In this document: positions 4,939-35,872 of the stretch, piece by piece
How positions within the stretch are numbered: position 1 is the first letter of the stretch
How the letters are laid out: each line of letters starts with the position of its first letter
Source: Syntrophaceae bacterium UBA4810
GTDB lineage: Bacteria > Desulfobacterota > Syntrophia > Syntrophales > Smithellaceae
NCBI GenBank assembly: GCA_002402545.1
Contig: DHGA01000061.1
Location: 1,239 to 65,238, forward strand
Length of the DNA stretch: 64,000 nucleotides
Direction: 5' to 3'
Translations under genes and position numbers: made by a program
Notes under the pieces: generated by a model
Database searches by the model: none
Told to the model about the DNA's origin: nothing
Seen by the model: the letters and a program-made list of their open reading frames with translations, nothing else

Positions 4939-6507
4939 ATGAAAATTTTACTTGCCGGCTATAACCTTGATTATGAGCTTATCAGTGAACTCAAACAAAA
5001 AAAATCTCTCGCTGAAGATTTGACACCGGAGACAATCTCCGCCGCTTACGCGCGCATCAGCCGCAGCCCCAAACCTGTTGATGAATTGCGCCAGCTGGCG
5101 CGAGGCGAAGTGGAAAAAGCGCGCCAGTCCAACCGCAACATCGTTTTTGAAATGGGACATAGCTCTGTCGCGGAACACGCTGTTTTTAACATCGATGTGC
5201 TGGGTGTTTCGCGCCTGCTGGTTGAAGAAATTGAGAAATTTCGCCTGTGTTCATTCACGGAAAAATCGCAGCGCTATGTTCTTTTCAATAAAGATTTTGT
5301 CGTGCCGGATGAAATCTGGCGGGCGGGTATGACCAATCTTTTCGTGGAGACAATAGCGGCGCAAAATGACTATTATCATGAACTTTATGAGAAGCTTCGC
5401 CCTTTTGTTTTTGAGCAAAACAAAGCGCTGGCCGAAAACCCGTCCAACAAATCCACGCTGGAAGGCTGGGCTAAAGAAGACGCCCGCTACGCCATTTCTA
5501 TGGCCACACAGACACAGCTGGGCATGACCATTAACGCCCGAAATCTAGAACTGATGCTGAGAAGACTCGGCGCGCTACAACTGGAAGAAGCCAAAGAATA
5601 TGCTAATAAATTATATGTGGCTACAAAAAATGTAGCACCTTCTCTTATTCGTTATACTGATGCAACATCCTATGATCGGCTTACTAGAAAAAATTTATGG
5701 AGACATCCTCTTTCAAGTCAACAGCATTTTCCATTTTTTCTCAGCACCGACTATGACTTGTTTACTAGACAAGGTTTACACGAGCAGGCATCTGCTATTA
5801 TGAATAAATATCCACAACCCAGAAGGAATAAAAAATTGCAAGCCGTACAACTTCTGTCTATCTCGGACGATGCTGATGACCGTATTGTCGCTTCACTTCT
5901 TTATTCTTCATCCCGTGATAATTACATAAATTGCATAAAGCGGGCTAAGCAAATGAACATCAAAGAAAAAAAAGCCTTGTTCAAAACTGCTTTTGAGCAT
6001 CTTGAACCGCATGACTCCGTGCTGCGCGAACTAGAAAATGTTGATCTTCACTTTGAACTCATCGTCAGCTCCACTTGTTTTGCACAATTAAAAAGGCATC
6101 GCATGGCGACAATTATCACGCAGGAATACGACCCCGCACTCGGTGTTACCATTCCTTCTTCTGTGCGCAAAATCGGCCAGCAAAAAAAGTTTATGGATAT
6201 CATCAAACAGACAAACAAAATTTACTCGCAAATCCGCAAGAAAGCGCCCGAAGCCGCGACCTACATTCTTACCAACGCGCACCGCAAAAGAGTATTGATG
6301 AAATTAAACGCGCGCGAGATGTATCATCTGGCGCGTCTGCGCGCCGACGCTCACGCCCAATGGGATATCAGAAACCTTACCGAAAGCATGCTCAAAAAAG
6401 CGAATATAATTATGCCTTTGACGCTTGCGCTGGCCTGCGGAAAAGACTCCTTCGAAAAGCTTTATAAAAAGACTTTCGGCGCTCAAGGCAGGCAGGGCAA
6501 ATCCTAA
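4939..6507 (+). CDS. thyX: FAD-dependent thymidylate synthase, double-length (tandem ThyX domains)
   Basis: 522 aa. The N-terminal half has GHSSVAEH...FTEKSQRY, and the C-terminal half has LKRHRMAT. Confidence 0.7.
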   Translation: MKILLAGYNLDYELISELKQKKSLAEDLTPETISAAYARISRSPKPVDELRQLARGEVEKARQSNRNIVFEMGHSSVAEHAVFNIDVLGVSRLLVEEIEKFRLCSFTEKSQRYVLFNKDFVVPDEIWRAGMTNLFVETIAAQNDYYHELYEKLRPFVFEQNKALAENPSNKSTLEGWAKEDARYAISMATQTQLGMTINARNLELMLRRLGALQLEEAKEYANKLYVATKNVAPSLIRYTDATSYDRLTRKNLWRHPLSSQQHFPFFLSTDYDLFTRQGLHEQASAIMNKYPQPRRNKKLQAVQLLSISDDADDRIVASLLYSSSRDNYINCIKRAKQMNIKEKKALFKTAFEHLEPHDSVLRELENVDLHFELIVSSTCFAQLKRHRMATIITQEYDPALGVTIPSSVRKIGQQKKFMDIIKQTNKIYSQIRKKAPEAATYILTNAHRKRVLMKLNAREMYHLARLRADAHAQWDIRNLTESMLKKANIIMPLTLALACGKDSFEKLYKKTFGAQGRQGKS

Positions 6508-7882: not shown

Positions 7883-8646
7883 AACTAAACGTTATCAGCT
7901 TAATCATCGGAATTTGCGCCGGCGCTTTCGGCGGCCTTATCGGCATCGGCGGCGGTTTAATCATGATTCCGCTGATGATGCTGTTTTTGAAATTCGGCCA
8001 ACATAAGGCTCACGGCACGAGTTTAGTCGCCCTTATTTTCACGGGAATCAGCGGCGCGATAATCTACGGCCTGCATGGCTCTGTGGATTACGTGGCTGCT
8101 ATTACGCTGGCCGTGCCCGCGATTTTTACCGCGAGATTAGGGGCAAAATACGCTCATTCTCTAGCGGAATGGAAATTGCGGAAATTATTTGGAATTTTTT
8201 TATTTTTCTGCGCGATGATGTTATTTTTCAAACCTTACATGGGAAACGCGATTGTCATCACATCTCCCGCGTTTATCATCATTATTTTTGTGATTGCCGG
8301 CGCGGCCACCGGATTTCTTTCCGGCATGATGGGTGTGGGCGGCGGAACAATAATGGTTCCGGTAATGGTGCTGCTGGCGGGATTCGGCCAGCACATGGCG
8401 CAGGGCACATCGCTTTTGGTTATGGTTCCGGCGGGTGCCGTGGGTGCTTATACGCACTGGCGGCTCGGAAACGTTAATCATCAAATTCTTTACGGCCTTA
8501 TCGTGGGAATTCTTGCCGGCACATATTTAGGCGGATACCTGGCGCATCTGATCGCGGAAGATATATTAAGGTTGATTTTTGTGACAATAATGATAGTGCT
8601 TAGTTTCCGTTATATTAAAACCGGTTATCCTGAAGAAGTTGAATAA
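7879..8646 (+). CDS. TauE/SafE (DUF81) family anion exporter-like membrane protein
   Basis: Two internal repeats with G-rich TM helices (GIGGGLIMIPLM / GVGGGTIMVPVM). Its start overlaps the upstream stop by 4 nt. Confidence 0.8.
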   Translation: MKLNVISLIIGICAGAFGGLIGIGGGLIMIPLMMLFLKFGQHKAHGTSLVALIFTGISGAIIYGLHGSVDYVAAITLAVPAIFTARLGAKYAHSLAEWKLRKLFGIFLFFCAMMLFFKPYMGNAIVITSPAFIIIIFVIAGAATGFLSGMMGVGGGTIMVPVMVLLAGFGQHMAQGTSLLVMVPAGAVGAYTHWRLGNVNHQILYGLIVGILAGTYLGGYLAHLIAEDILRLIFVTIMIVLSFRYIKTGYPEEVE

Positions 8647-8648: not shown

Positions 8649-9143
8649 ATGATTCGCCAATGCACACAAAATGATTTTGAAGAAATTCTGGCCATCATCA
8701 ACGACGCGGCAACTGCCTACATTGGATTCATCCCTGATGACTGCTGGCACGAGCCTTACATGTCTGCCGATTATCTACGCCACGAAATGGATGACGACGT
8801 GAACTTCTGGGGGCTGGAAGAAGAAGGCCGGCTTATTGGTGTAATGGGCATTCAGGACAGAGGCGATGTTACGCTGATTCGCCACGCTTATGTCCGGACA
8901 GCTTCGCGCAATAAAGGAATCGGCTCTCAGCTATTAAATAATTTACAAAACATGGCCGACAAGACCATCCTTATCGGCACCTGGGCTGCCGCCACTTGGG
9001 CGATATCTTTTTACGAGAAAAACGGCTACAGTCTGGTCTCCACTGAAGAAAAAAACCGCCTGCTTAAAAAATACTGGAAGATTCCCGCGCGCCAGGTAGA
9101 AACATCCGTGGTTTTATCTTCAAAAATCAAAACTCTCATCTAA
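8649..9143 (+). CDS. GNAT family N-acetyltransferase
   Basis: RNKGIGSQLL acetyl-CoA-binding motif. 164 aa. Confidence 0.75.
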   Translation: MIRQCTQNDFEEILAIINDAATAYIGFIPDDCWHEPYMSADYLRHEMDDDVNFWGLEEEGRLIGVMGIQDRGDVTLIRHAYVRTASRNKGIGSQLLNNLQNMADKTILIGTWAAATWAISFYEKNGYSLVSTEEKNRLLKKYWKIPARQVETSVVLSSKIKTLI

Positions 9144-9151
9144 AAAAAGTT

Positions 9152-9622
9152 TTAACGGAGAGCTCTTTCGTAGGCGCTTTCGGAATAGCCGTGAATGGCG
9201 CGACCGTTAATGATGGCAAAGGGCACACCGCTTCTTGGGTCAAGCTCCCTTTTTCTGGCCGCGGCCTCGCGGTCTTTTTCCACGTCATATTCGGTAAAAG
9301 GAATATTGCGGGACAGAAAAAAATTGCGCGCTTTCGTGCAGTAGGGGCACCAGCTTGTCGTATAAAGAACAACTTCTTGATTCTTATCCTGAATTGCCTC
9401 TTTTTTATCCGCGGATGTTTTTTCTTTTTCCGGCCTGATGCAAATCTCTTGGGGAGTATCCGCATCTTTGCTCGTCTTTACTTTTTTGCCATACTTCGCG
9501 GGCGGCGGATAATCGGTTATATGGACATTGCCCTGATCATCTTCCCACGTATAGAAATCCGCAACGGCAATTCCCTGCAGGGCAAAAAATATAGCAATAC
9601 AAATAAATAAATGTTTTATCAT
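9152..9622 (-). CDS. secreted DUF4124 / glutaredoxin-fold fusion protein
   Basis: Signal peptide, FYTWEDDQGNVHITD (DUF4124-like), and VVLYTTSWCPYCTKAR glutaredoxin CPYC motif. Confidence 0.7.
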   Translation of the reverse strand: MIKHLFICIAIFFALQGIAVADFYTWEDDQGNVHITDYPPPAKYGKKVKTSKDADTPQEICIRPEKEKTSADKKEAIQDKNQEVVLYTTSWCPYCTKARNFFLSRNIPFTEYDVEKDREAAARKRELDPRSGVPFAIINGRAIHGYSESAYERALR

Positions 9623-10991: not shown

Positions 10992-11124
10992 AATTACAAT
11001 AAGGGGTGTTTTTATGCGTCACCTCGAATTTATTAAACCTGTAAACTGTTTCAAAAAGCAACTGATATATTTACCAGACATTACCCAGTTGTTATGATAA
11101 ATAAAATGAAGGAGGCTCAATGAA

Positions 11125-11664
11125 ATGGTAGAGCAACCAAAAAGAAGTTTAGGAAAAGCAATTGATTCAATTGTTGACGCACTAGAGACCTTGGATGATG
11201 ATTCAAAACTTATTGCGGTTAAAGCTGCATGTGCTCACCTGAATATCCCTTTGGGTAACGAAGCACAAACAGTTCTACCACCACGGACAGTAACGCCAAC
11301 TCAATCTGAACAGATAGCACCATCCTCAACTCAATCACCAGATAATACACAAATTATTGATATCAGGTCTCTCAAAGAGAGCAAAAACCCTAACAATGCT
11401 GTTGAGATGGCTTGTATTGTAGCATTTTACCTTGGAAACACTGCCCCAACCGAAGAAAGAAGGAATGAAATTTTTACCAAAGACATTGACCGCTATTTTA
11501 AGCAAGGAGGATTTCCTCTTCCTAAAGTGCCTGGCCAGGTATTACGTGATGCCAAGGCCGCTGGCTATTTGGATTCTGCCGGTCGAGGATCTTTTAAATT
11601 AAATCCTGTCGGTTATAATTTAGTTGCACATACTTTACCGCGAGCAAAAGGTAAAAAATCTTAG
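11125..11664 (+). CDS. hypothetical protein (AT-rich accessory DNA)
   Basis: GGAGG RBS and a 179-aa ORF. I recognised no family. Confidence 0.55.
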   Translation: MVEQPKRSLGKAIDSIVDALETLDDDSKLIAVKAACAHLNIPLGNEAQTVLPPRTVTPTQSEQIAPSSTQSPDNTQIIDIRSLKESKNPNNAVEMACIVAFYLGNTAPTEERRNEIFTKDIDRYFKQGGFPLPKVPGQVLRDAKAAGYLDSAGRGSFKLNPVGYNLVAHTLPRAKGKKS

Positions 11665-11713
11665 CTTTGTTCTTGGCTGGTATCAAATCTTTGAAGGATT
11701 TAGGTCTTATTAA

Positions 11714-12517
11714 ATGATTGAACATATCAGAACTTTACAAGAAGCTCTTAATTCTCTGCAAATTGGCCTTCGTAAAATAAGATCAAAACAGATTCATCAT
11801 AAAAAGATCATTGCTGCTTCAAAAAAGATAGTTGATATTTATTTTAGAGAACTTCGTGAATTTCTTTTGAGTGCCTGCAACAACACGTCTGTTATTACAG
11901 ATCTGGATGCTAATATGCAAGACCTTCTTGAAGCAACACATAAGAAGACTAGTATCGGTATTTATAAGAGCAGGGTATCAAAAATAAAAAATCTACTATT
12001 GGAAACAGAAAAACTTATCCTTTTATCAGCAAGTAATTCTAATAACAGACATCAACTTACCCCTGCTGACAGAAGGGTAATAGAGACATTAAAGAAAATT
12101 CTCCCCTCGGCTGCGTTATCGTATGAGCAAGCATTAATAGATATGGAATCGTCGCACCGCTTATCCTGGAGGGGACCAGCGACAGATTTACGTGAGGCAT
12201 TAAGAGAGTGTTTAGATCATTTAGCCCCTGATAAGGAAGTTGAAGATGCCCCCGGATTTAAACGCGAACCAAATGCAAATGGCCCCACTATGAAACAAAA
12301 AACTACATATATACTGAGGAGTAGGCAATTATCTAAGGAATCAATTAAATCAGCACAAGATTCGGTTGCACTGATTGATGAAATGCTTGGATCATTTGTC
12401 CGATCAATTTATACACGCGCAAGTATATCAACACATACACCAACGGATAAAAAAGAAGTGGGGCGTATTTGTGATTTGGTAAGATTTGTTCTATGTGAAC
12501 TATTATCAATTTCATAA
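11714..12517 (+). CDS. hypothetical protein with C-terminal Rx5H (HEPN-like?) motif
   Basis: 267-aa ORF with RASISTH near the C-terminus. Family not recognised. Confidence 0.5.
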   Translation: MIEHIRTLQEALNSLQIGLRKIRSKQIHHKKIIAASKKIVDIYFRELREFLLSACNNTSVITDLDANMQDLLEATHKKTSIGIYKSRVSKIKNLLLETEKLILLSASNSNNRHQLTPADRRVIETLKKILPSAALSYEQALIDMESSHRLSWRGPATDLREALRECLDHLAPDKEVEDAPGFKREPNANGPTMKQKTTYILRSRQLSKESIKSAQDSVALIDEMLGSFVRSIYTRASISTHTPTDKKEVGRICDLVRFVLCELLSIS

Positions 12518-12520
12518 GAA

Positions 12521-12587
12521 TCCTAACCAGTCGCTAAAGCCGATCGCAGCGCCTGCGGCGCCGCTCCGGCTTAGCTTTTCGTTGGGC
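12521..12587 (+). repeat. attC-like recombination site 1
   Basis: TCCTAAC...CGCTAAAGCCGATCG...GCCGCTCCGGCTTAGCTTTTC-GTTGGGC. Imperfect palindrome with unpaired bases. It begins 4 nt after the upstream stop and ends 8-20 nt before the next start. Confidence 0.65.
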
Positions 12588-12606
12588 AACAAAATTGAAT
12601 ACAATC

Positions 12607-13686
12607 ATGAAGCGAGAAAACAGGCTTTTCATAGATGAATGTGGTTATACGGGAGAAGACCTCTTTAATGAGGATCAACCCGTTTTTGTCCTAGCCAGTT
12701 TCTGGTTAGCTGAAGAATATTGCGTCGATTTAAAACACAAATATTTCTCAAAAGTAAAAGCCAAAGAGCTGAAACATTCACGTTTATCAAGATATCCCGC
12801 CCAACAAAATATGGTTATTGATTTTCTTCGTGATATAGCAAAGGAATCAGACTCAGTCAAATTTGCCATTGCCCATAAACATTATGTTCTTATAACTAAA
12901 ATTGTTGACCTTCTTATCGAACCAATGGCGTATGAAGATGGTTTAGATTTCTATCAAGATGGTCTCAATATAGCTTTTTCAAATATGCTATACATCCAAA
13001 CCAAAAGACTCGCAGGAGATGATTTTTTTAAATGTATGCTCAAAAGTTTTCAGCAAATGATGAGAGAAAGGACATATCCCGCGTATGAAGCTTTTTTTAG
13101 GCCCATTTGCGAAAAAAAATTTCATAAAAAGCTTGATGAATTTTTTATTTTTCTTAAGGCACATCACGTACGATATGGCCCCAATTTTTTACGTACAATT
13201 CCGAAAGATGCGCTTGAAATTGCCTTTGCTGAAGCATTCAATTTGGTAGCTGAGTGGTCGAAATCTATTCAAGGCAATTTTTCACTTATACATGACAAAT
13301 CTTCAAATATGGCCAAAAATAAAAAGGCCTGGGATAAAGTGCTTCACCCTGCGGTTCCACCCAAAGTTGTAGGCTACGACAGGAGAAAAATGTATTTTCC
13401 CATTCGGACGGAAAAATCAGACTTCGAGAATTCATCTGATTTTGCAGGATTGCAACTTGTGGACATATTAGCAGGAGCAATGGCCAGATGTATGAAATGG
13501 AATATTCAGGGGGAAGAAGATCATGACGACTATGCGAAAGAATTGTCATCCTTTTTGCCAGAGTCATTTGGAGGACATATGCTTTGGCCTAGTACAAATG
13601 TAACTCCCAAAGATCTTGGGACAACTGGTCCAAAGGCTGAAGATGCAATACAGCATTTCATTGACTTGATCAAAGATGTTATCTAA
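12607..13686 (+). CDS. DUF3800 domain protein
   Basis: N-terminal FIDECGYTG (DE motif) and C-terminal LQLVDILAGA motif typical of DUF3800. The ATG at 12607 is preferred over the TTG at 12595. Confidence 0.65.
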   Translation: MKRENRLFIDECGYTGEDLFNEDQPVFVLASFWLAEEYCVDLKHKYFSKVKAKELKHSRLSRYPAQQNMVIDFLRDIAKESDSVKFAIAHKHYVLITKIVDLLIEPMAYEDGLDFYQDGLNIAFSNMLYIQTKRLAGDDFFKCMLKSFQQMMRERTYPAYEAFFRPICEKKFHKKLDEFFIFLKAHHVRYGPNFLRTIPKDALEIAFAEAFNLVAEWSKSIQGNFSLIHDKSSNMAKNKKAWDKVLHPAVPPKVVGYDRRKMYFPIRTEKSDFENSSDFAGLQLVDILAGAMARCMKWNIQGEEDHDDYAKELSSFLPESFGGHMLWPSTNVTPKDLGTTGPKAEDAIQHFIDLIKDVI

Positions 13687-13708
13687 CAATAATGAACTTA
13701 AGGGCAAT

Positions 13709-13772
13709 GCCCAACACCCGCTAAAGCCGATCGTGGCCACAAGGGCCGCTCCGGCTGAGCTTTTCGTTGGGC
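13709..13772 (+). repeat. attC-like recombination site 2
   Basis: GCCCAAC (RYYYAAC) ...CGCTAAAGCCGATCG...GCCGCTCCGGCTGAGCTTTTC-GTTGGGC (GTTRRRY). The ends are exact reverse complements. It shares an obviously related internal sequence with site 1. Confidence 0.7.
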
Positions 13773-13783
13773 AGGAGAAGGAC

Positions 13784-14386
13784 ATGAAGAAGCGATGCGA
13801 GTGGTGCGGCGGTGATCTCCTGTATATTGCCTACCACGATGAAGAGTGGGGTGTCCCTGTTCATGATGACCGCCTGTTGTTTGAGTTCCTTGTGCTGGAA
13901 GGAGCACAGGCGGGACTAAGCTGGCTGACCATCCTGAGGAAACGGGAGAACTATCGGAAGGCGTTTGACGCCTTCGAGTGTGAGCGTGTTGCCAAATACA
14001 CAGGGCATGACGTAACGCGCTTGCTCTCGGACTCCGGAATCGTACGGAATCGGCTCAAGATCGAATCGACCATCAAGAACGCTCGCACCGTTCTTGAAAT
14101 CCAGAATGAATGGGGCTCTCTGGATGCGTACTTATGGCGCTATGTTGATGGCATCCCAAAGCAGAACATGTGGAAATCTATGGCGGAGTTGCCCGCGAAG
14201 ACCGAAACGTCCGACATGATGAGCAAGGATTTGAAGAAGCGCGGATTCAACTTCGTGGGCTCAACAATCTGCTACGCATTCATGCAGGCGGTCGGCATGG
14301 TGAACGACCACACCACAGACTGCTTTCGCTACAGGGAGATCAAGAAGCTGAGATCGTCCAACCAGCCATCGGAAGCGACTCGCTAA
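13784..14386 (+). CDS. tag: DNA-3-methyladenine glycosylase I
   Basis: CEWC...YHDEEWGVPVHDD...LEGAQAGLSW signature. GGAG RBS, with the start 12 nt after the attC R' box. Confidence 0.9.
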   Translation: MKKRCEWCGGDLLYIAYHDEEWGVPVHDDRLLFEFLVLEGAQAGLSWLTILRKRENYRKAFDAFECERVAKYTGHDVTRLLSDSGIVRNRLKIESTIKNARTVLEIQNEWGSLDAYLWRYVDGIPKQNMWKSMAELPAKTETSDMMSKDLKKRGFNFVGSTICYAFMQAVGMVNDHTTDCFRYREIKKLRSSNQPSEATR

Positions 14387-14417
14387 AGCTCGCTCCTAAA
14401 TGGCTAACGTTAAGGGA
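14355..14417 (+). repeat. attC-like recombination site 3 (more divergent, overlaps tag 3' end)
   Basis: GTCCAAC...AGCCAT.GGAAGCGA-loop(CGCTAAAGC)-TCGCTCC...ATGGCT-AAC-GTTAAGG. Arms pair with bulges. The next ORF starts 11 nt downstream. Confidence 0.5.
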
Positions 14418-14428: not shown

Positions 14429-14782
14429 ATGCAGTACACCACTGTTCCTTTGTATGTCTCTACGCCGACAATGAAGAGCCTGGGCAATGAATATACTATC
14501 TTCGAGGACAAAATAGATTTGAGGTGCAGGTATTTGTTTTTCAATAAGATAATTACCGTGAAAAAGGAGGATATCGTTTCTATCGACGTATTCAGGCCAC
14601 CGGTAATCAGAACTTCGTTTAAAGCGCTAAAGCTTGATCTCGCGGATTTTTATGAGCATGTCGGCATAACCAGAAAGGGCGGCGTTTTCAGTCAATTGCG
14701 TTTTACCCCGGAAGACCCGCAGAAATTTGTTGCCGCGGCCAAAGAGGTTTTTGATATTGCTAATAAATCAAAGGAGATTTAA
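14429..14782 (+). CDS. hypothetical protein
   Basis: 117-aa ORF immediately after attC-like site 3. Confidence 0.5.
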   Translation: MQYTTVPLYVSTPTMKSLGNEYTIFEDKIDLRCRYLFFNKIITVKKEDIVSIDVFRPPVIRTSFKALKLDLADFYEHVGITRKGGVFSQLRFTPEDPQKFVAAAKEVFDIANKSKEI

Positions 14783-14784
14783 AC

Positions 14785-15120
14785 ATGCCCGAAAAGTTAT
14801 CAGAGATAAAAGATTTGACCAATGTATTGAAGCTAAAAGATATCGTCGCCTATCAGGAGCATTCCGTGGTGAGCCGGGAATTAATCCGCAAGCCAACCGG
14901 AACGCTGAGCGTTTTTGCCTTTGACCAGGGCGAAGGCTTAAGCGAACATACCGCGCCATTTGACGCAGTGGTCTGCATCCTGGAGGGCGAAGCGCAAATC
15001 AGCATTGATAAAAAGCCCCATACGATTAAAGAAGGCGAGATGCTGATTATGCCCGCCAACAAGCCACACGCGCTGCAGGCTGTCACCAAATTCAAAATGT
15101 TATTGGTGATGATTAAATAA
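14785..15120 (+). CDS. cupin domain protein
   Basis: GEMLIMPANKPHAL and H..P....V.EG cupin motifs. 111 aa. Confidence 0.7.
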   Translation: MPEKLSEIKDLTNVLKLKDIVAYQEHSVVSRELIRKPTGTLSVFAFDQGEGLSEHTAPFDAVVCILEGEAQISIDKKPHTIKEGEMLIMPANKPHALQAVTKFKMLLVMIK

Positions 15121-15209
15121 AGATTAGGATTATTATATAAATACACTTTTTTAACATTCCAAATGTTTGGCAGCAAAACAAATGACTTGATTTTCAAAAA
15201 GATTACTTC

Positions 15210-15238
15210 TTGACATTAGTAAACATATTGTTTATCAT
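15210..15238 (+). promoter_or_regulatory. sigma70-type promoter of higBA (TTGACA-17-TATCAT)
   Basis: The -10 box ends 6 nt before the higB ATG, which implies a leaderless or near-leaderless mRNA. Confidence 0.5.
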
Positions 15239-15244
15239 GCCTGC

Positions 15245-15526
15245 ATGATCAAGTCTTTTCGTTGCCGTGAAACCGAGAAGATATTTCGGCGTGAGTTTTC
15301 ACATAAGTTTCCTCGAGACATCCAGCAGCGCGCCTTCATAAAACTCAACGCCCTTGATGCGGCAATAAAAATTGAAGATTTGCGTTTGCCACCTTCTAAT
15401 CGGCTGGAGACATTAAAAGGAAAGCGACAGGGACAATGGAGCATCAGAATCAATGACCAATGGCGTCTTTGCTTCACATGGAAAGACGGCCATGCAGAAA
15501 ACGTTGAAATCGTTGATTATCATTAA
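15245..15526 (+). CDS. higB: HigB-type (RelE/ParE superfamily) toxin
   Basis: 93 aa. The pattern ...LKGKRQGQWSIRINDQWRLCF.W......VEIVDYH is typical of plasmid-maintenance killer HigB. Confidence 0.8.
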   Translation: MIKSFRCRETEKIFRREFSHKFPRDIQQRAFIKLNALDAAIKIEDLRLPPSNRLETLKGKRQGQWSIRINDQWRLCFTWKDGHAENVEIVDYH

Positions 15527-15537
15527 GGAGATTTAAA

Positions 15538-15840
15538 ATGGCAAAAAAACCAATAAAGCCAGTTCATCCGGGAGTTTATTTAAAAGAGTTGCTCAATGAG
15601 CTCGAGCTTTCACAGTATCGCCTCGCAAAAGAGTTGAATGTTCCGGCGATGCGTATTAATTATGTAATAAACGGCAAACGCCCCGTGAATGCATCTCTAG
15701 CTTTGAGATTGGGAAGGTATTTCAGCCAAGACCCGCGTTACTGGATCAATCTGCAGAGCCGCTACGATATGGATATAGCCGAAGACGCGCTGGAAAATAA
15801 AATCGTCCGCGAGGTTCATCCCCTGAGAATGGCAGGATAG
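15538..15840 (+). CDS. higA: HigA-type XRE-HTH antitoxin
   Basis: PVHPGVYLKELL...LSQYRLAKELNVPAMRINYVINGKR pattern. Toxin-first gene order. Confidence 0.8.
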   Translation: MAKKPIKPVHPGVYLKELLNELELSQYRLAKELNVPAMRINYVINGKRPVNASLALRLGRYFSQDPRYWINLQSRYDMDIAEDALENKIVREVHPLRMAG

Positions 15841-17616: not shown

Positions 17617-17774
17617 AATCTTTCATTGACACACAAAGCCGTCTGTCTTAATATTACAACAGTGTAAAACACTTTTTTATTTCCGGCGCATAGGCAAAAC
17701 CCATCTATGGATAGTCCCACAGGCGAAATCAAAGGAGTGGAATACCGCGAGGAATTTGTTGCGGTTGATGATGC
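17617..17774 (+). repeat. left copy of a direct repeat (promoter box plus first 23 codons of the alpha/beta-hydrolase gene)
   Basis: 17617-17651 matches 21726-21760 (35 bp, 2 mismatches) and 17706-17774 matches 21806-21874 (69 bp, 2 mismatches). Contains TTGACA(17626)-17-TAATAT. Confidence 0.85.
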
Positions 17775-21725: not shown

Positions 21726-21874
21726 AATCTTTTATTGACACACAAAGCCGACTGTCTTAAATTCGCCTATTAGAAAGCCATGTCGTATCAGAAGTTAGAG
21801 GCAGTTATGGATAGTCCCTCAGGCGAAATCAAAGGAGTGGAATACCGCGAGGAATTTGTTGCGGTTGATGACGC
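21726..21874 (+). repeat. right copy of the direct repeat (native promoter and 5' end of the hydrolase gene)
   Basis: See the left copy. Contains TTGACA(21735)-17-TAAATT. Confidence 0.85.
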
Positions 21875-24357: not shown

Positions 24358-24546
24358 GTTATTTTCCTCCTGGCTGATAAGTTATCATATTTTTATGCCG
24401 CAAGCATAGGTTAATGCTTCGCGATATGTCAATGAATTTATATCCTTATTGCTGAATACCTGATTTAGCAGCTAATATTCAGATTTATTTACGATAAGCA
24501 GCGCAATGAGGAGATATTGAACTAAAATATTGGTGGCAATCTTTCA

Positions 24547-24575
24547 TTGACTCTCAAAACCGTGTGTCTTAAAAT
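24547..24575 (+). promoter_or_regulatory. promoter (TTGACT-17-TAAAAT), third copy of the conserved 37-bp promoter box
   Basis: TCTTTCATTGACTCTCAAAACCGTGTGTCTTAAAATC compared with 17619 TCTTTCATTGACACACAAAGCCGTCTGTCTTAATATT. Confidence 0.5.
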
Positions 24576-31221: not shown

Positions 31222-32214
31222 TTGCAGAAATATTCTTATATTTTTGATGCTTTTGGAAGTTCGTTTGGAGTATCGGGCAACTGGCCTGACTGCCTCAAAG
31301 ATATCAGCGCCTGGTATGCCTTGCCGCAAAGCAAAATATCGGGCAAGCCGGATTTATCTTTGCAAATCTCCGGCGCCAAAATAGAAGAAATTGACCGGCG
31401 GCTTCCCCTGCCCTCTGAGAATCATAAACTCAAAAAAGGCGTCATGCTGGCCAATGAAAATTTTGATTATACATCTTACGCGGACAACGAAAGGCAATGG
31501 ATTGATTACGCCCGTGTCGGGCGAATTATGATTGATTACGTCAATGGTTCTGCGATAGCGCTTATGTGCGGCAGCGCCATGCTCCCTACCTACCAGAAAA
31601 TTCTTTTTCCCGACTATGCTTTGGACAAACTTCTTACCTCCCGGGGAATTTTTTCGATGCATGCCTCCTGCGCTGTGGTTAACGGCAAAGGCATAGCCTT
31701 TACAGGCAATTCCGGCGCGGGTAAGTCCACGGCGGCTTTTATGCTGATGCAGAAAGGAATGCAGATACTTACCGATGAAAAATTGTATGTTTTTAAAAAA
31801 GATTGCTACCGGGCGGGGGCGGTTTCGGATATTATTAAGGTAAACGATGATTCCATGTCGAGATTTTTTGCCGGGCGGGATTCTTACAGCGAATATGACG
31901 TTATCGCCGGGGAACATTATTTAAAAATCAGCGCCGCGACAAAATCCGCCGGGCAAAATCAGGTGCCGCTCAAAGCGCTGTGCCTGCTGGAGCAGACAGG
32001 CTTTCCCCAAACGCAGATAACCTCCGTCAATCCCACCAAGCTTGTCGGCGGCCTCTTCCCCGTTACCATAACAGGGACAAGCCGCAGATATAAAGCAGCC
32101 AAGTTTGATTTTATTATGGAAATGCTGGAGAACATCGAGTGCCGTCTGGTTAAATTCGGCACTAATATGGATAGTTTTACGGAAAAAATTAAGGAACTGG
32201 CAGATACATTATAG
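31222..32214 (+). CDS. HPr-kinase-related (HprK-like) P-loop kinase
   Basis: GIAFTGNSGAGKST P-loop in HPrK C-domain context. TTG start after AGAGG. Confidence 0.65.
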   Translation: MQKYSYIFDAFGSSFGVSGNWPDCLKDISAWYALPQSKISGKPDLSLQISGAKIEEIDRRLPLPSENHKLKKGVMLANENFDYTSYADNERQWIDYARVGRIMIDYVNGSAIALMCGSAMLPTYQKILFPDYALDKLLTSRGIFSMHASCAVVNGKGIAFTGNSGAGKSTAAFMLMQKGMQILTDEKLYVFKKDCYRAGAVSDIIKVNDDSMSRFFAGRDSYSEYDVIAGEHYLKISAATKSAGQNQVPLKALCLLEQTGFPQTQITSVNPTKLVGGLFPVTITGTSRRYKAAKFDFIMEMLENIECRLVKFGTNMDSFTEKIKELADTL

Positions 32215-32295: not shown

Positions 32296-32382
32296 TTAAG
32301 GGTCTGGTTGTTTGCTCGAAGTGGTTATATCCGAAAGATCTTCATAAACGACAAGTTCCGGTTTTTCGTAGTCTTGCTTCAT
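32296..32382 (-). CDS. RiPP precursor peptide A1: MKQDYEKPELVVYEDLSDITTSSKQPDP
   Basis: My own codon-by-codon translation. AAGGGGGA RBS. The leader is shared with six paralogs. Confidence 0.8.
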   Translation of the reverse strand: MKQDYEKPELVVYEDLSDITTSSKQPDP

Positions 32383-32642
32383 AGTTGTTCCCCCTTTGAT
32401 TGAATATTAAATTGTTTTTATGCATACGACAAAAATCCATCACAAGCAAGTTTGTTTTTTTTTGCAATGATTCTAGTGAAACAATTCTTCAGAAGCAATA
32501 TATTATAAGCTCAGGTATTTGTGCCTTTTTATGACTTAATAATACTGCTCCATTGGCCAATTTCCCTTGACATATAAGACAGTCTTATCCTACGATTTTG
32601 CAACCAAATATAATATATTATCACAATTAGAGGTGGCTTTGC

Positions 32643-34190
32643 ATGAAGGAATTGGACCTTGCCTGGTACATGATACGACTGCACACGCGGCTGCGGCGTT
32701 TTGATCATAAGCGAAATAGTCAAGATAAGATAAATATTTTTCACCATGCCAGGAGGGTCACGAGTAAGTTGAGTTCCGTCCTGATTCGCTTTTCTGTAGC
32801 CGAGGCAAAAACCCCGTGGTTTACTGATGACGAAGCTAAAGCGATTCATCAAGAGAGAGAAAAACTATTAGAGAAGCTTTCCGGTCGGACAAACCTCAGT
32901 GCCAACGGGACTAAACTCCATCTCGGTAAGCTGTCTCGGGGTTGCACCATTTGCATGGATGGATACTGGGGTTGTAACTATATCAACGGGCGGTGCCACA
33001 GAAACTGCTTTTACTGCATGCGAGATCATTCAATGCAAACGGAACCAAATTCCAAAAGTGATGGTTTTGATTTTGGCACTTCCGAAGAACACATAGAATT
33101 CCTCAAAACTTTTCAGATCAGGGGTGTCGGATTTTCCGGGGGAGAACCCTTGTTGGTTCTCGATCGGCTCTTGGAGCACATTGTTGCGATACGTAAGGAA
33201 CTCGGTTCCACAATTTATCTCTGGATGTATACCAATGGCGATTTGGTAAACCGCGAGACGCTTAGTGCGCTCAGAGATGCCGGGCTAAACGAGATCCGTT
33301 TCGATTTGAGCGCCCGAGGTTATGACTTGTCACCTCTTGTGCTCGCCAAGGAATATATCCCCACCGTAGCTGTTGAAATACCGGCCATCCCTGAGGATTT
33401 TCTCTTGGTGAAAAAGTTGCTGGTCGATATGCAGGCTGTTGGCGTCAATCACCTCAATCTTCATCAATTAATGGCTGGGCAGCGTAATTGGAAGGCTTTG
33501 TGCCGTCGGCACTATCACTTTTCGTTTCAAAGTACGCCTGCTGTTCATGAGTCAGAGCTTTGCGCCTTGCGTTTGATTCTGTACGCTTGTGAGCAAAAAC
33601 TGAACCTGCCAATCAATTACTGTTCCGTAGCCTACAAATTTCGTTTTCAGGGACGAGCATTCAGAATGCGGCGCGCCTTGGTTCTTCGGGAAGGGTTTCA
33701 GGAAATAACGGAAGCGGGCTATATCCGATCACTGTGTATATCTGATTCCGCCGATAAGATTGAAGCGCTAGCTAGGCGGTTGAAGGGTGATCATGTGGAA
33801 CCCATATTGTGGAAAGAGGAATGCGATCATGGTGAAATCTCCTTGCACAGCAACCTGATGTCCTATGTTGATTGGTCTTCTGCGACGTTGGCTATCAAAT
33901 ACTATCAGGCTGGTGTTGCGCTCAAGAATAAATCCGCTCGATTCGAACCTGGAAATCTGAAAAGGGATAGGCGTACCGTCAAGACGGTTACCGGCTTGGG
34001 TTGTTCAGCCTTCGATTGTTGGCATAGGCTTTATGTTCAGAAGGAAGCCGCAACAGATGTTTTCAGCCCCACCCATCTTAAACACCTCGGTGTTTCGGAA
34101 GAGAAAAATCGGTTTAAGAATATAATCGGTCAACTGCTTTCTGTGGCCACATACGAACAATTGGAGGCTGGCTTGCCTGATGTGACTTGA
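32643..34190 (+). CDS. radical SAM protein (515 aa, large C-terminal extension)
   Basis: GRCHRNCFYC CX3CX2C motif preceded by an extra Cys cluster (CTICMDGYWGC). GFSGGEPLL glycine-rich SAM motif. Confidence 0.75.
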   Translation: MKELDLAWYMIRLHTRLRRFDHKRNSQDKINIFHHARRVTSKLSSVLIRFSVAEAKTPWFTDDEAKAIHQEREKLLEKLSGRTNLSANGTKLHLGKLSRGCTICMDGYWGCNYINGRCHRNCFYCMRDHSMQTEPNSKSDGFDFGTSEEHIEFLKTFQIRGVGFSGGEPLLVLDRLLEHIVAIRKELGSTIYLWMYTNGDLVNRETLSALRDAGLNEIRFDLSARGYDLSPLVLAKEYIPTVAVEIPAIPEDFLLVKKLLVDMQAVGVNHLNLHQLMAGQRNWKALCRRHYHFSFQSTPAVHESELCALRLILYACEQKLNLPINYCSVAYKFRFQGRAFRMRRALVLREGFQEITEAGYIRSLCISDSADKIEALARRLKGDHVEPILWKEECDHGEISLHSNLMSYVDWSSATLAIKYYQAGVALKNKSARFEPGNLKRDRRTVKTVTGLGCSAFDCWHRLYVQKEAATDVFSPTHLKHLGVSEEKNRFKNIIGQLLSVATYEQLEAGLPDVT

Positions 34191-34320
34191 TTAATTAACA
34201 AGCTGCCGACACTGGTTACCCAAAATAGTTGTGCCGTCCAGGGACTTTAATAGCGGATAAGATTGTTTTTATTATTGAGATGCTGGCAAATGCTGTCAGA
34301 AACATTATAAATGCTTGATA

Positions 34321-34376
34321 AACAAAGGCGCTCAATACCGGGATTTAACCCTATTCATTGATCGCCAGATAAAAAA
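34321..34376 (-). terminator. conserved hairpin terminator module, copy 2 (after precursor A2)
   Basis: GGCGCTCAAT-loop(ACCGGGATTTAACCC..)-ATTGATCGCC, with a T-run on the minus strand. Confidence 0.6.
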
Positions 34377-34387
34377 GATACTTACTG

Positions 34388-34477
34388 TTATACAGGACTG
34401 GTACTCAAGCCACCTGTCGTTACATCCGAAAGGTCTTCGTAAACAATCAGTGCGGGTGTTTCATAATCTTGTTTCAA
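34388..34477 (-). CDS. RiPP precursor peptide A2 (TTG start): MKQDYETPALIVYEDLSDVTTGGLSTSPV
   Basis: In-frame TAA two codons upstream of the TTG, and GGAGGG 6 nt upstream. Confidence 0.7.
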   Translation of the reverse strand: MKQDYETPALIVYEDLSDVTTGGLSTSPV

Positions 34478-34538
34478 AATTTACCCTCCTCAGATAATTA
34501 AAATACCTTTTAAGGTTTAAGGTTAAAAATATCCTGTT

Positions 34539-34634
34539 TTAATCTACTACTGTTTTGCTTATTGGCCCGCCTGTCGTGACGTCAGAAAGATCTTCATAGA
34601 CAACAAGTTCGGGTTTTTCGTATTCTTTTTTCAT
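34539..34634 (-). CDS. RiPP precursor peptide A3: MKKEYEKPELVVYEDLSDVTTGGPISKTVVD
   Basis: GGGAGG RBS. My own translation. Confidence 0.8.
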   Translation of the reverse strand: MKKEYEKPELVVYEDLSDVTTGGPISKTVVD

Positions 34635-34760
34635 GGTTACGCCTCCCTGGATTTCTTACTATAATGAATTGCTGAATAAATACAACAAAAACAAACAGTA
34701 GTCAATTTATTTTAGGGTTATAAAAACATAAAAATGCAAAATGGTGGAGTAGACAATATA

Positions 34761-34789
34761 TTGACACAAAAGTTCAATGTTCTTATACT
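34761..34789 (+). promoter_or_regulatory. promoter (TTGACA-17-TATACT) upstream of the formyltransferase gene
   Basis: Consensus boxes 52 nt upstream of the ATG at 34841. Confidence 0.55.
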
Positions 34790-34840
34790 TTCTGACCGCA
34801 TACTCGGCGGTAAACAAAAGAGGTTAAGGGGCATTTTTTT

Positions 34841-35779
34841 ATGAGAGTATTATTTATCGGCCAAAACGGGTCTTTCAGCACATATCCTCTGCGCAAAATC
34901 GCGGCGGAGCACGAAATCGTGGGCATTGTGGAATCCGTACCGCAAAAGTACACGCCAATGAAAGCAAAGCTGCTAAAATTTTTAACCCGCTACAATAAAA
35001 AGCAGACGCTCAGATCATTGGCCCGACAAATGTCCGTGCCCTACTTTTTGCTGCAGAGAGGCAAAAAAAATGGCCTCGCTTCTTTCGTTAAAACACTTAA
35101 CCCGGATATTATCTGCGTGGCTTCTATGTCGGAGCTTTTGCCCAAAGAAGTTTTTTCCATGCCTCCATTCGGGACAATAAATTTCCACCCCGCGTTGCTT
35201 CCCCAATACCGCGGCCCTCGGTCGTTTTTCTGGCAGTATTATTTTATGGAACCGGAAACAGGCGTAACCATTCATTACATAGACGAAGGCGAAGATACGG
35301 GTGATATCATCAGGCAAAAAAGCATTCCCATATTTTTGGGCATGAAAAGCGGGGAACTAGTAAATGAAATAACCATTATTGGAGCGGCACTCATGGCAGA
35401 GGCGCTTGACGATATAAGCAAAGGGACTGTCCAGAGCGTACCGCAAAAGCATCTGCCCTGCCCTTTTCGAGCAAGGCGCGAGAAAAAGGGCGAAGAGCTT
35501 ATTGACTGGAACTGGCCGATTGAACGCATCTGGCATTTTCTACGCGGAACGGCGTATCAGGATAAATCGTTCAAATACAGGTTGCCCGGCTCTTCCTGGA
35601 TTGTGAGGGATTTCAAAAAAGGCGAAACTGACGGCACAGCGGGGATGCTGAAAATCAGCTTACAGGGTTTCTACATGACCCACAGGGAAGGAAAAATCTT
35701 TGTTACCCTGAAATGGTCGCTAATAGATTTCGCCCGCGATTTATATCACTTTGCTTTAAAATTAACGGGACAAGATTGA
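34841..35779 (+). CDS. formyltransferase (Fmt/PurN-fold, with Fmt-like C-terminal domain)
   Basis: NFHPALLPQYRG (catalytic His block) and IHYIDEGEDTGDII (Asp block). Confidence 0.75.
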   Translation: MRVLFIGQNGSFSTYPLRKIAAEHEIVGIVESVPQKYTPMKAKLLKFLTRYNKKQTLRSLARQMSVPYFLLQRGKKNGLASFVKTLNPDIICVASMSELLPKEVFSMPPFGTINFHPALLPQYRGPRSFFWQYYFMEPETGVTIHYIDEGEDTGDIIRQKSIPIFLGMKSGELVNEITIIGAALMAEALDDISKGTVQSVPQKHLPCPFRARREKKGEELIDWNWPIERIWHFLRGTAYQDKSFKYRLPGSSWIVRDFKKGETDGTAGMLKISLQGFYMTHREGKIFVTLKWSLIDFARDLYHFALKLTGQD

Positions 35780-35803
35780 ACAAAAAAAGATTAGTGCTCG
35801 AAA

Positions 35804-35860: not shown

Positions 35861-35872
35861 AAGATGCTTACT

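What the first reader, a model, noticed from the sequence alone, without database searches (positions are those of the whole stretch)
12521..14417. Three attC-like recombination sites define integron-type gene cassettes with no integrase in sight (CALIN)
- Site 2 (13709-13772) starts with GCCCAAC (RYYYAAC) and ends with its exact complement GTTGGGC (GTTRRRY).
- Site 1 (12521-12587) is TCCTAAC...GTTGGGC. It shares with site 2 the internal blocks CGCTAAAGCCGATCG and GCCGCTCCGGCT(T/G)AGCTTTTC.
- In both sites the arms pair imperfectly (GCTAA-A-GCCG... against ...CGGC-TTAGC), leaving unpaired bases. This is characteristic of attC folding.
- Site 3 (14355-14417) is GTCCAAC...GTTAAGG. It differs in sequence but has the same length class. 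Its arms pair as AGCCAT/ATGGCT and GGAAGCGA/TCGCTCC around a loop holding CGCTAAAGC, and it overlaps the tag stop codon.
- Each site lies directly 3' of a plus-strand ORF. Each is followed within 8-20 nt by the next ORF, with no room for a promoter. That is the cassette layout.
- Cargo so far: two unknown genes, DUF3800, Tag, and an unknown gene plus a cupin.
- No tyrosine-recombinase gene is present in the window.
Basis: partly seen in the sequence, partly recalled or inferred. Interest (0 to 1): 0.7.

Follow-up and report, generated by a model that had tools for sequence, protein, structure and literature searches.

The report
Integrase-less integron cassette array (CALIN)
Three genuine integron recombination sites (attC) bound three mobile gene cassettes in a Smithellaceae chromosome with no integrase gene nearby, which is a well-known kind of element (a CALIN) and therefore largely ordinary.

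Summary

- **Sites 1 and 2** (12521-12587, 13709-13772) belong to a strongly conserved attC family of Syntrophia and related anaerobes. Covariance models built only from sites in other genomes hit them at 78/62 bits (E 1e-22/3e-17) and 73/58 bits. The hits are strand-specific, and nothing else in the 64 kb scores.
- **Link to integrases.** In other genomes the same family forms same-strand arrays next to integron integrases that pass NCBIfam TIGR02249.
- **Site 3** (14356-14415, not 14355-14417) is missed by both models. It is still the attC of the Tag cassette: the same cassette, about 90% identical, sits in an unrelated long cassette array. Homology starts within 2 nt of the G|TT of site 2 and ends 5 nt before the G|TT of site 3.
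- **No integrase.** No IntI- or XerD-like gene lies 12.5 kb upstream or 49.5 kb downstream.
- **Variable slot.** Sister Smithellaceae carry different cassettes in the same NMO–AF_1327 slot.
- **Correction.** The ORF117 + cupin pair is conserved chromosomal flank, not a demonstrated cassette.

Verdict: a new member of a known kind (CALIN), of low-to-moderate interest.

The parts
11088..11097 (+). Putative left junction GTTG|TTATGA. Cassette 1 would start at T11092.
   Evidence: The junction GTTATGA matches the reverse complement of site 1's R'' (GTTAGGA) at 3 of the 4 variable positions. It maps about 12 nt upstream of the junction ...ATATTAATTG|TTA used in sister lineages. This placement is inferred, not proven.
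11125..11664 (+). Cassette 1, gene 1: 179-aa protein of unknown function
   Evidence: No Pfam or PADLOC hit. Its 90%-identity cluster has one member.
11714..12517 (+). Cassette 1, gene 2: 267-aa protein with a pP_pnuc_1 (pPIWI-associated nuclease-like) domain
   Evidence: Pfam PF18165, E 7.6e-12. PADLOC Aga_Nuclease, E 3.6e-9. Single-member cluster.
12521..12587 (+). attC site 1 (R'' TCCTAAC, R' GTTGGGC). Recombination point between G12581 and T12582.
   Evidence: 78.2 bits, E 1e-22 with model R1, and 72.6 bits with model R2; both hits are strand-specific. The hairpin has an unpaired central spacer, a bulged T and a GAT/GA internal loop.
12582..13766 (+). Cassette 2 (1185 nt), holding the DUF3800 gene at 12607-13686
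   Evidence: Pfam PF12686. Its first bases TTGGGCA complement its own R'' TGCCCAAC at 8 of 8 positions.
13709..13772 (+). attC site 2 (R'' GCCCAAC, R' GTTGGGC). Recombination point between G13766 and T13767.
   Evidence: 61.7 bits, E 3e-17 with R1, and 58 bits with R2. It is the only strict RYYYAAC...GTTRRRY pair in the window.
13767..14409 (+). Cassette 3 (643 nt), holding tag (3-methyladenine DNA glycosylase I) at 13784-14386
   Evidence: Pfam PF03352, E 3e-83. Window 13765-14404 is 90% identical to L117 5982-6621, which lies inside an unrelated cassette array. The gene is 93% identical to one in an Acidobacteriota MAG that carries a different attC.
14356..14415 (+). attC site 3 (R'' GTCCAAC, R' GTTAAGG), a different attC type. 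Recombination point between G14409 and T14410.
   Evidence: The L117 homologue reads GCCCAAC-CAGCCATCGGAGGCGA-TTCGCTAAAGC-TCGCGCCACAATGGC-AGC-GTTGGGA. Homology between the window and sister lineage L100 resumes at 14411. Models R1 and R2 do not detect the site (4.9 bits).
14429..15120 (+). Conserved flank: ORF117 (14429-14782) and the cupin gene (14785-15120). Not demonstrated to be a cassette.
   Evidence: The segment is homologous in L100, and the cupin is also homologous in L104. No attC lies downstream.
15245..15840 (+). higB (15245-15526) and higA (15538-15840) toxin-antitoxin pair with its own promoter
   Evidence: Pfam PF05015 and PF01381. Promoter TTGACA-17-TATCAT at 15210-15238. higB is missing in L100 and both genes are missing in L104.

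Best explanation
**What it is**
- Window 11092-14409 is an integron cassette array without an adjacent integrase (a CALIN). It lies in the chromosome of a Smithellaceae bacterium, between an NMO-family oxidoreductase gene and a conserved ORF117-cupin-(HigBA)-AF_1327 block.
- It holds three cassettes in the same orientation:
  1. A 179-aa gene of unknown function plus a pP_pnuc_1 nuclease-like gene.
  2. A DUF3800 gene.
  3. The Tag DNA glycosylase gene.
- Each cassette ends in an attC site.

**How it works**
- Established integron biology: each attC folds as a single-stranded bottom-strand hairpin. The hairpin has an R-box stem, an unpaired central spacer, extrahelical bases and a variable terminal stem.
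- Established integron biology: an integron integrase cleaves between G and TT of the R' box, so cassettes are excised as circles and inserted as units.
- Inferred: because no intI is nearby, any movement must use an IntI encoded elsewhere in the genome or on an incoming element.
- Inferred: the array either grew by insertion at a chromosomal GTT-type secondary site, or it is what remains after loss of intI.
- Inferred weakly: the cassettes lack obvious promoters of their own and are probably read from upstream. A weak TTTACC-17-TATGAT site overlaps the left junction.
For: **Sites 1 and 2 match the family**
- Model R1 was built from 57 sites in other genomes. It gives 78.2 and 61.7 bits on the + strand, with no other significant hit beyond site 1's own weaker reverse-strand reading.
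- Model R2 was built from 51 diverse sites. It gives 72.6 and 58 bits.

**The family is linked to integron integrases**
- Full-length IntI homologues, 45-50% identical to IntI1, lie within 8 kb of family sites in at least 9 loci, mostly divergently oriented.
- Three of these homologues were tested against NCBIfam TIGR02249. They scored 421-465 bits against a cut-off of 265.

**The family forms arrays**
- Same-strand arrays of 5-7 sites occur in other genomes.

**Covariation supports the fold**
- All 8 variable-terminal-stem pairs and 6 of 9 L-box pairs show compensatory changes. The observed structure exceeds all 500 shuffles and every slid control.

**Cassette-boundary test**
- In other genomes, the variable 4 nt of R'(n) equal the reverse complement of R''(n+1) in 30 of 38 adjacent pairs. 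Random pairing gives 2.5%.
- A site's own R'' and R' match perfectly in only 6 of 68 cases.
- In the window the scores are 4/4 for site 1 to site 2 and 3/4 for site 2 to site 3.

**The Tag cassette is mobile**
- It occurs at 90% identity in an unrelated array. Homology starts within 2 nt of the G|TT of site 2 and ends 5 nt before the G|TT of site 3.

**The slot varies between lineages**
- Homology between the window and L100 breaks at 11036 and resumes at 14411.
- Sister lineages hold different cassettes with family attCs in the same slot.

**Cassette genes are lineage-specific**
- Apart from tag (16 members), the window-specific genes have 90% clusters of 1-3 members, against 29-46 members for the flanking genes.

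**No integrase in the window**.
Against: - Site 3 is not recognised by either surrogate model (4.9 bits). Its central spacer is short and partly paired, and it has a 3-nt bulge on the atypical arm. It may therefore be a poor substrate today.
- IntegronFinder's own attC model could not be run.
- The left boundary of cassette 1 rests on a 3/4 match that I searched for myself.
- All 16 contigs carrying this exact locus have the same layout, so there is no direct sign of ongoing turnover in this lineage.
- It is unknown whether this genome encodes IntI anywhere.
- The count of promoter-like sites is not above the shuffled expectation.
Confidence: 0.87

Rival explanations
1. The array is the inactive remnant of a complete integron that once sat in this slot. 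intI and attI were deleted, and the cassettes have been frozen since.
For: - All 16 contigs with this exact locus are identical in layout.
- Terminal attCs in sister lineages have decayed R' boxes: CATTAGG in L100, GCATGTGG in L104 and L112, ACATGTGA in L114.
- The window has lost the 112/141-aa ORF that precedes the array in relatives.
- Loss of intI is one published route to CALINs (PMC4889954).
Against: - No intI fragment is detectable within 12.5 kb by tblastn.
- No sister lineage has intI within 7-10 kb of the slot.
- Genomes with an identical NMO protein differ by whole cassettes after the same junction. That points to exchange after any integrase loss.
Confidence: 0.25
2. The sites are genuine attCs, but the differences between lineages arose by homologous recombination or transfer of the whole island through the conserved flanks. 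No integrase acted at this locus.
For: - The flanks are 82-86% identical between lineages, which is enough for homologous exchange.
- The window's left breakpoint (11036) lies inside a remnant ORF, not at a GTT box.
Against: - The right breakpoint falls exactly at the G|TT of site 3.
- In relatives the left breakpoint falls exactly after ...ATTAATTG. The next 6-7 nt complement the R'' of the first cassette's own attC (L104 7/7, L114 7/7, L112 6/7). That is the signature of site-specific recombination.
Confidence: 0.12
3. The repeats are not attC sites. They are REP-like extragenic palindromes or transcription terminators that happen to carry AAC/GTT ends.
For: - They are GC-rich intergenic hairpins lying 3' of ORFs.
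- Their folding z-scores are unremarkable.
- Rfam has no match.
Against: - Only one orientation occurs, and only in this cluster within 64 kb.
- No T-tract follows the hairpins.
- The family is linked to integron integrases and forms co-oriented arrays elsewhere.
- Adjacent sites show R'(n)/R''(n+1) complementarity in 30 of 38 pairs.
- The Tag cassette is shared with another array, with homology ending 2 and 5 nt from the G|TT points.
Confidence: 0.02

Closest known systems
[quoted passage not shown] 2016, PMC4889954)
   Same: - Three attC sites on one strand, spaced 1188 and 647 nt apart.
- No intI or recognisable intI pseudogene within 10 kb.
- Small promoterless cassettes, mostly of unknown function and with few homologues.
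   Different: Nothing essential differs. The extra observation is that the array occupies a fixed chromosomal slot whose cassette content varies among sister lineages.
Sedentary chromosomal integrons of environmental bacteria, such as the intI-linked arrays in Smithella, Syntrophaceae and Desulfomonilia MAGs found here (L011, L020, L022, L061, L083)
   Same: - Same attC sequence family.
- Same cassette logic.
- Same kind of cargo, with a toxin-antitoxin pair next to the array.
   Different: - No adjacent intI or recognisable attI.
- Only three cassettes.
- attC types are mixed: two of the Syntrophia type and one foreign type.
attG / SALIN route: IntI-mediated cassette insertion at genomic GWT secondary sites (bioRxiv 10.1101/2022.09.11.507474)
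   Same: - Cassettes sit in a chromosome away from any integrase.
- Junctions lie at GTT triplets (window CAGTTG|TTATGA; relatives ATTAATTG|TTA).
- The right end is a hybrid R' fused to chromosomal sequence.
   Different: - attG insertions were described as dispersed over very many sites.
- Here one junction is followed by at least three different first cassettes, so it behaves more like an attI. The insertion mechanism at this locus is inferred, not shown.
Class 1 integron attC sites (59-base elements), such as attC-aadA7
   Same: - Length class of 60-67 nt.
- RYYYAAC/GTTRRRY boxes and a 5-nt unpaired central spacer.
- An extrahelical base at about position 16 and an unpaired T at about position 23 of the bottom-strand R''-L'' arm, separated by a 6-bp stem, as described in PMC5027507.
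   Different: - The extrahelical base at position 16 is T rather than the usual G.
- The sequence family is distinct.
- The integrases linked to this family are only 45-50% identical to IntI1.

Membership tests
integron attC site | R'' (RYYYAAC) and R' (GTTRRRY) boxes with conserved AAC/GTT triplets at the two ends of a 57-141 nt element | tested here: met
   Site 2 meets the strict consensus. Sites 1 (TCCTAAC) and 3 (GTTAAGG) each deviate at one degenerate position. AAC and GTT are present in all three. Lengths are 67, 64 and 60 nt.
integron attC site | Imperfect hairpin with an unpaired central spacer, extrahelical bases on the R''-L'' arm of the bottom strand, and a variable terminal structure | tested here: met
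   Sites 1 and 2 have a 7-bp R stem, a 4-5 nt spacer, a bulged T, a GAT/GA loop 6 bp further in, and a covarying terminal stem. This geometry agrees with PMC5027507. Site 3 meets the feature only partly: its spacer is short and partly paired, and it has an extra 3-nt bulge on the other arm.
integron attC site | Significant match to an attC covariance model | tested here: inconclusive
   IntegronFinder's attc_4.cm was not available. Surrogate models built from intI-linked sites in other genomes score sites 1 and 2 at E 1e-22 to 2e-12. Site 3 scores 4.9 bits, which is not significant.
integron attC site | Family members occur in co-oriented arrays next to an integron integrase gene | tested here: met
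   IntI homologues lie within 8 kb of family sites in at least 9 loci, and the three tested pass TIGR02249. Arrays of 5-7 same-strand sites occur elsewhere. No such linkage was found for the site-3 type: no IntI was found in the fetched parts of its array.
integron gene cassette | The unit is bounded at G|TT, so the bases after GTT of the preceding site complement the R'' of the cassette's own attC. The same unit is found in other contexts with those boundaries. | tested here: met
   Cassette 2 scores 8/8, cassette 3 scores 6/7 and cassette 1 scores 7/8 (inferred start). The rule holds in 30 of 38 adjacent pairs elsewhere against 2.5% at random. The Tag cassette is 90% identical over window 13765-14404 to part of the L117 array.
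integron gene cassette | Excision and integration catalysed by IntI | not testable with these tools
   This needs a recombination assay.
CALIN | [quoted passage not shown] | tested here: met
   Three sites lie on the + strand, with start-to-start spacings of 1188 and 647 nt.
CALIN | No integron integrase gene or recognisable pseudogene nearby (4-10 kb) | tested here: met
   tblastn with IntI1 and XerD against the whole 64-kb window gives only hits of E > 1 over 9-33 residues. The same queries find IntI at E 1e-71 to 1e-98 in other loci. The query sequences were recalled from memory and are validated by those hits.
complete integron | intI, attI and a Pc promoter adjacent to the first cassette | tested here: not met
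   There is no intI. An attI-like junction and a weak promoter-like site (TTTACC-17-TATGAT, 11070-11098) are present but unproven.
REP / extragenic palindrome family | Many dispersed copies per genome, in both orientations, unrelated to gene-cassette layout | tested here: not met
   Only two copies of the family occur in 64 kb. Both are on the + strand and both are in the array. Elsewhere the family occurs in co-oriented arrays.

The most novel reading that the evidence does not exclude
The slot downstream of the NMO gene in Smithellaceae may be an 'orphan' cassette-acquisition platform. On this reading, a fixed attI-like chromosomal junction (...ATATTAATTG|TT in sister lineages, CAGTTG|TT about 12 nt upstream in this window) has no integrase of its own. 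It is nevertheless used repeatedly by an IntI acting in trans, so different lineages carry different first cassettes there. This would be a natural, evolutionarily maintained example of an attG hotspot behaving as an integrase-less integron. It could represent an intermediate between secondary-site insertion and a true attI.
Probability: 0.3. Interest if true: 0.6.

Novelty: new member of a known kind. Interest (0 to 1): 0.3.

Why it matters
- **Known category.** The locus is a clean, well-delimited CALIN in an uncultured syntrophic anaerobe (Smithellaceae). CALINs are already known to be abundant, so it adds an example rather than a concept.
- **A conserved attC family.** One very conserved attC family (…TAAC-n5-GCTAAAGCCGATCGC…CTCCGGCTTAGCTTTTC-GTT…) is shared by intI-linked arrays across Syntrophia, Desulfomonilia, Desulfobotulus and Syntrophorhabdus. 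That suggests a common cassette pool in methanogenic and sulfidic habitats.
- **A cassette that crosses large taxonomic distances.** A Tag DNA-repair cassette is shared at 90-93% nucleotide identity between Smithellaceae, an Acidobacteriota MAG and a third array.
- **Turnover without a local integrase.** Several Smithellaceae lineages carry different cassettes after the same integrase-less junction. This offers natural material to test the trans-acting IntI / attG route for the origin of CALINs.
- **Possible defence cargo.** The pP_pnuc_1 nuclease-like gene and the DUF3800 gene fit the view that cassettes carry defence-type functions. That link is only suggestive here.

Tried and rejected
- **Rfam.** A gathering-threshold scan of the window returned nothing. 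No attC family matched.
- **Strict pattern scan.** A scan for RYYYAAC...GTTRRRY finds only site 2. The strict consensus is too narrow for sites 1 and 3.
- **Folding energy.** Free energy against shuffles is weak evidence (z -0.8 to -3.4), so I did not rely on it.
- **Site 3 against the models.** Neither the family model R1 nor the broader model R2 detects site 3. blastn-short of site 3 against the 93 loci from the genome-collection scan found no relative. Site 3 was settled only through the Tag cassette homologue.
- **A fourth attC.** I looked after the cupin or higBA genes (TTTTAAC...GATTTTC around 15158-15200) and for a decayed attC after ORF179 (CTTAGCTTTGTTC at about 11660). Neither scores, so both were rejected as unsupported.
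- **DUF3800 cassette elsewhere.** Its only 90% relative (P0033) is the same locus.
- **Chance hits of the collection pattern.** The pattern also hit a conserved 54-nt Bacillaceae element and a few random sequences (L015, L057, L062, L067, L086, L095, L097). These were excluded from the models.
- **A third model.** I considered a covariance model from the heterogeneous L117-type attCs. I dropped it because 8-9 very dissimilar sites would give a weak model.
- **Host species.** None of the 93 stretches returned by the genome-collection scan has the window's paired sites 1 and 2. The window's species is therefore not represented in that collection, or its representative genome lacks this locus.
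Full report
**1. The observation**

Reading the sequence confirms the sites.
- Site 1 is at 12521-12587 (TCCTAAC…GTTGGGC).
- Site 2 is at 13709-13772 (GCCCAAC…GTTGGGC).

The details also hold.
- The 15-mer CGCTAAAGCCGATCG occurs exactly twice in the window, once in each of sites 1 and 2.
- The alignment shows the second shared block.
- DNA folding gives the described imperfect hairpins: an R-box stem, a 4-5 nt unpaired spacer, an L stem with a bulged base, an asymmetric internal loop and a terminal stem.
- Folding energies are not remarkable against shuffles (z -0.8 to -3.4), so energy alone proves nothing.
- The tag stop codon (14384-14386) lies inside site 3.
- The next start codons follow the sites by 19, 11 and 13 nt.

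Pfam confirms most of the cargo.
- DUF3800 at 12607-13686.
- Adenine_glyco (Tag) at 13784-14386.
- A cupin at 14785-15120.
- HigB and an HTH antitoxin at 15245-15840.
- A pP_pnuc_1 nuclease-like domain in ORF 11714-12517. PADLOC also gives Aga_Nuclease, E 3.6e-9, for this ORF.

tblastn with IntI1 and XerD finds no tyrosine recombinase anywhere in the 64 kb.

**2. Are sites 1 and 2 attC sites?**

I scanned one genome per GTDB species with a loose two-block pattern taken from sites 1 and 2. It returned 93 stretches.
- About 55 are the same element in MAGs labelled Syntrophaceae, Smithella, Smithellaceae, Desulfomonilia and 'Deltaproteobacteria'. It also occurs in the isolates Desulfobotulus alkaliphilus and Syntrophorhabdus aromaticivorans.
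- About 30 are an unrelated Bacillaceae element, which I discarded.

The family is linked to integron integrases.
- In at least 9 of the 8-kb loci a full-length protein 45-50% identical to IntI1 lies beside the repeat, mostly divergently transcribed as in classical integrons.
- Three of these proteins were tested against NCBIfam TIGR02249 'integron integrase'. They score 421-465 bits against a cut-off of 265.

Covariance models trained on other genomes recognise sites 1 and 2.
- Model R1, built from 57 non-window sites, hits site 1 at 78.2 bits (E 1e-22) and site 2 at 61.7 bits (E 3e-17). Both hits are on the + strand. The only other significant hit in the window is the weaker reverse-strand reading of site 1 itself (23 bits).
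- In the other loci R1 reveals same-strand arrays of up to 7 sites, spaced 300-1600 nt apart.
- A broader model R2, built from 51 diverse sites in those arrays, gives 72.6 and 58 bits.

Covariation supports the fold. All 8 terminal-stem pairs and 6 of 9 L-box pairs carry compensatory changes. The observed structure beats all 500 shuffles and all slid controls.

The bottom-strand geometry matches the published description in PMC5027507. There is an extrahelical base at about position 16, a 6-bp stem, and then an unpaired T at about position 23 on the R''-L'' arm. The first extrahelical base is T rather than the usual G.

**3. The cassette-boundary test**

Integrase cuts between G and TT of R'. 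The bases after GTT therefore belong to the next cassette and should complement that cassette's own R''.
- In arrays from other genomes, the four variable bases of R'(n) equal the reverse complement of R''(n+1) in 30 of 38 adjacent pairs.
- Random pairing gives 2.5%.
- A site's own R'' and R' match perfectly in only 6 of 68 cases.

The window follows the rule.
- Site 1's R' (GTTGGGCA) is the exact complement of site 2's R'' (TGCCCAAC).
- Site 2's R' (GTTGGGC) matches the complement of site 3's R'' (GTTGGAC) at 6 of 7 positions.

**4. Site 3**

Neither model recognises site 3. It scores 4.9 bits at exactly 14356-14415. Its spacer is short and partly paired. By the surrogate attC-model criterion it fails.

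Independent evidence settles it.
- The 90%-identity cluster of the Tag protein has members in other contexts.
- One member, P0036, lies in a 17-19 kb contig made of about 20 co-oriented small ORFs separated by heterogeneous xxxCAAC…GTTRRRY sites.
- Window 13765-14404 is 90% identical to L117 5982-6621. Homology begins at the (C)GTTGGGCA of site 2's R' and ends just before site 3's R'.
- The L117 copy of the attC is GCCCAAC-CAGCCATCGGAGGCGA-TTCGCTAAAGC-TCGCGCCACAATGGC-AGC-GTTGGGA. Its R'' complements the cassette's own TTGGGC start perfectly.
- An Acidobacteriota MAG carries the same gene at 93% identity with a different attC that keeps R'' GCCCAAC.

Site 3 is therefore the attC of a mobile Tag cassette that came from a different attC lineage than sites 1 and 2.

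**5. Context and boundaries**

Names given to the ≥90% relatives of the flanking NMO protein place the host in Smithellaceae.
- Apart from tag (16 members), the genes specific to this lineage have 90% clusters of 1-3 members.
- The flanking genes have clusters of 29-46 members.

The exact locus recurs unchanged in 16 metagenome contigs. Sister lineages carry other genes in the same slot between NMO and AF_1327.
- L100/L101 carry a 202-aa ORF followed by a family attC (45 bits, R' decayed to CATTAGG), then HhH-GPD, DUF3783, ORF120, cupin and HigA.
- L104-L112 carry a 112/141-aa ORF, then a 144/148-aa ORF followed by an attC with a decayed R', then DUF3175, DUF3783 and cupin.
- L114/L116 have an identical NMO protein but carry a different 145-aa cassette plus a GNAT cassette.

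blastn maps the segment specific to the window to 11037-14410.
- Homology with L100 resumes at 14411, at the TT of site 3's GTT.
- ORF117, the cupin and higA are conserved flank. The cupin is present in all three lineages, and no attC follows it.

The left junction behaves like a recombination point.
- In the relatives, conserved sequence ends at ...ATATTAATTG. The next bases (TTACAC, TTAGCT, TTACAA) complement the R'' of the first cassette's own attC at 7/7, 7/7 and 6/7 positions.
- A metagenome scan for this junction found a third, different first cassette.
- L100 has ATT|GGCC at this point, matching its attC's R'' GGCCAAC.
- No intI lies within 7-10 kb in any of these loci.
- In the window the 112/141-aa ORF is deleted. 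The likely junction is CAGTTG|TTATGA at 11091/11092, about 12 nt upstream of the relatives' junction. It matches the complement of site 1's R'' at 7 of 8 positions. This last point is an inference.
- A weak promoter-like site (TTTACC-17-TATGAT, 11070-11098) overlaps the junction. Such matches are not enriched over shuffles.

**6. Mechanism**

*Shown*
- The three sites are attCs.
- The units between successive G|TT points behave as cassettes.
- Family members sit next to integron integrases elsewhere.
- No integrase lies nearby here.
- The slot varies between lineages at G|TT-type breakpoints.

*Established knowledge*
- attC bottom strands fold and are cleaved by IntI at G|TT.
- Cassettes move as circles.
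- CALINs can arise by loss of intI, by rearrangement, or by insertion at secondary (attG, GWT) sites (PMC4889954; bioRxiv 10.1101/2022.09.11.507474).

*Inferred*
- An IntI acting in trans supplied or exchanged these cassettes. A Smithellaceae chromosome in the collection, OY820932.1, does encode one (L083).
- I cannot tell whether this array is still active or whether this genome has an intI.

**7. Comparison and verdict**

The locus meets every testable criterion for a CALIN and fails those for a complete integron and for REP elements. It is a new member of a known kind. The most novel reading left open is that the slot is an integrase-less, attI-like acquisition platform reused across Smithellaceae. 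I put that at about 0.3 probability.

Noticed in passing
window 32296-36454, minus strand: Five to seven paralogous ORFs of 27-31 aa (MKQ[E/D]YEKPEL[V/I]VYEDLSD[I/V]T...) each have their own ribosome-binding site. They are interleaved with + strand genes for a radical SAM enzyme (32643-34190), a formyltransferase (34841-35779), DUF362 (36466-37506) and an HPr-kinase-C-like protein (31222-32214). This looks like a multi-precursor RiPP cluster.
   Followed up: partly
window 17617-17654, 21726-21763, 24538-24575 (and 36499-36527): A 38-nt promoter-like repeat (AATCTTTCATTGACACACAAAGCCG.CTGTCTTAA.AT) occurs at these positions. The first two copies are followed by 69-nt ORF starts that are 97% identical (17706 and 21806). 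They may be co-regulated paralogous operons.
   Followed up: no
window 15124-15527, compared with L100 and L104: higB and its strong promoter (TTGACA-17-TATCAT, 15210-15238) are present in the window. They are precisely absent from sister lineage L100, which keeps only higA. Both genes are absent from the L104 lineage.
   Followed up: partly
L007, L009, L019, L023 and about 25 other Bacillaceae loci: A highly conserved 54-nt-plus element (GGGGTTGATTGTATCGCTAAAGCCGCATACAATGAATTTATATTAAATATAGCGGCTAAGCGTTACGTTAATC) is found in many Bacillaceae genera. It was picked up by chance by the attC search pattern. Its identity is unknown.
   Followed up: no
L104:12113-12164 compared with L112:9114-9171: The same 144/148-aa gene, the same R'' (GTGTAAC) and the same decayed R' remnant (GCATGTGG) occur in both loci. 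The attC bodies differ: a 56-nt type in one and a 61-nt type in the other. This suggests exchange or conversion within attC sites.
   Followed up: no
L117 intergenic regions (for example 1213-1592, 5178-5499, 7949-8290, 9066-9359, 11615-11931): Repeated intergenic elements of about 300 nt, sharing blocks such as CCGTTCAACAACATT and GCAAGAATACGCTTGTTTGCAAACAG, are interspersed among the cassettes of this array.
   Followed up: no
window 50650-50980: A lysine/alanine-rich repetitive coding stretch (AAAAAAGC.AAAGC-type repeats) lies at the N-terminus of a protein with a tRNA_edit domain (50652-51452).
   Followed up: no
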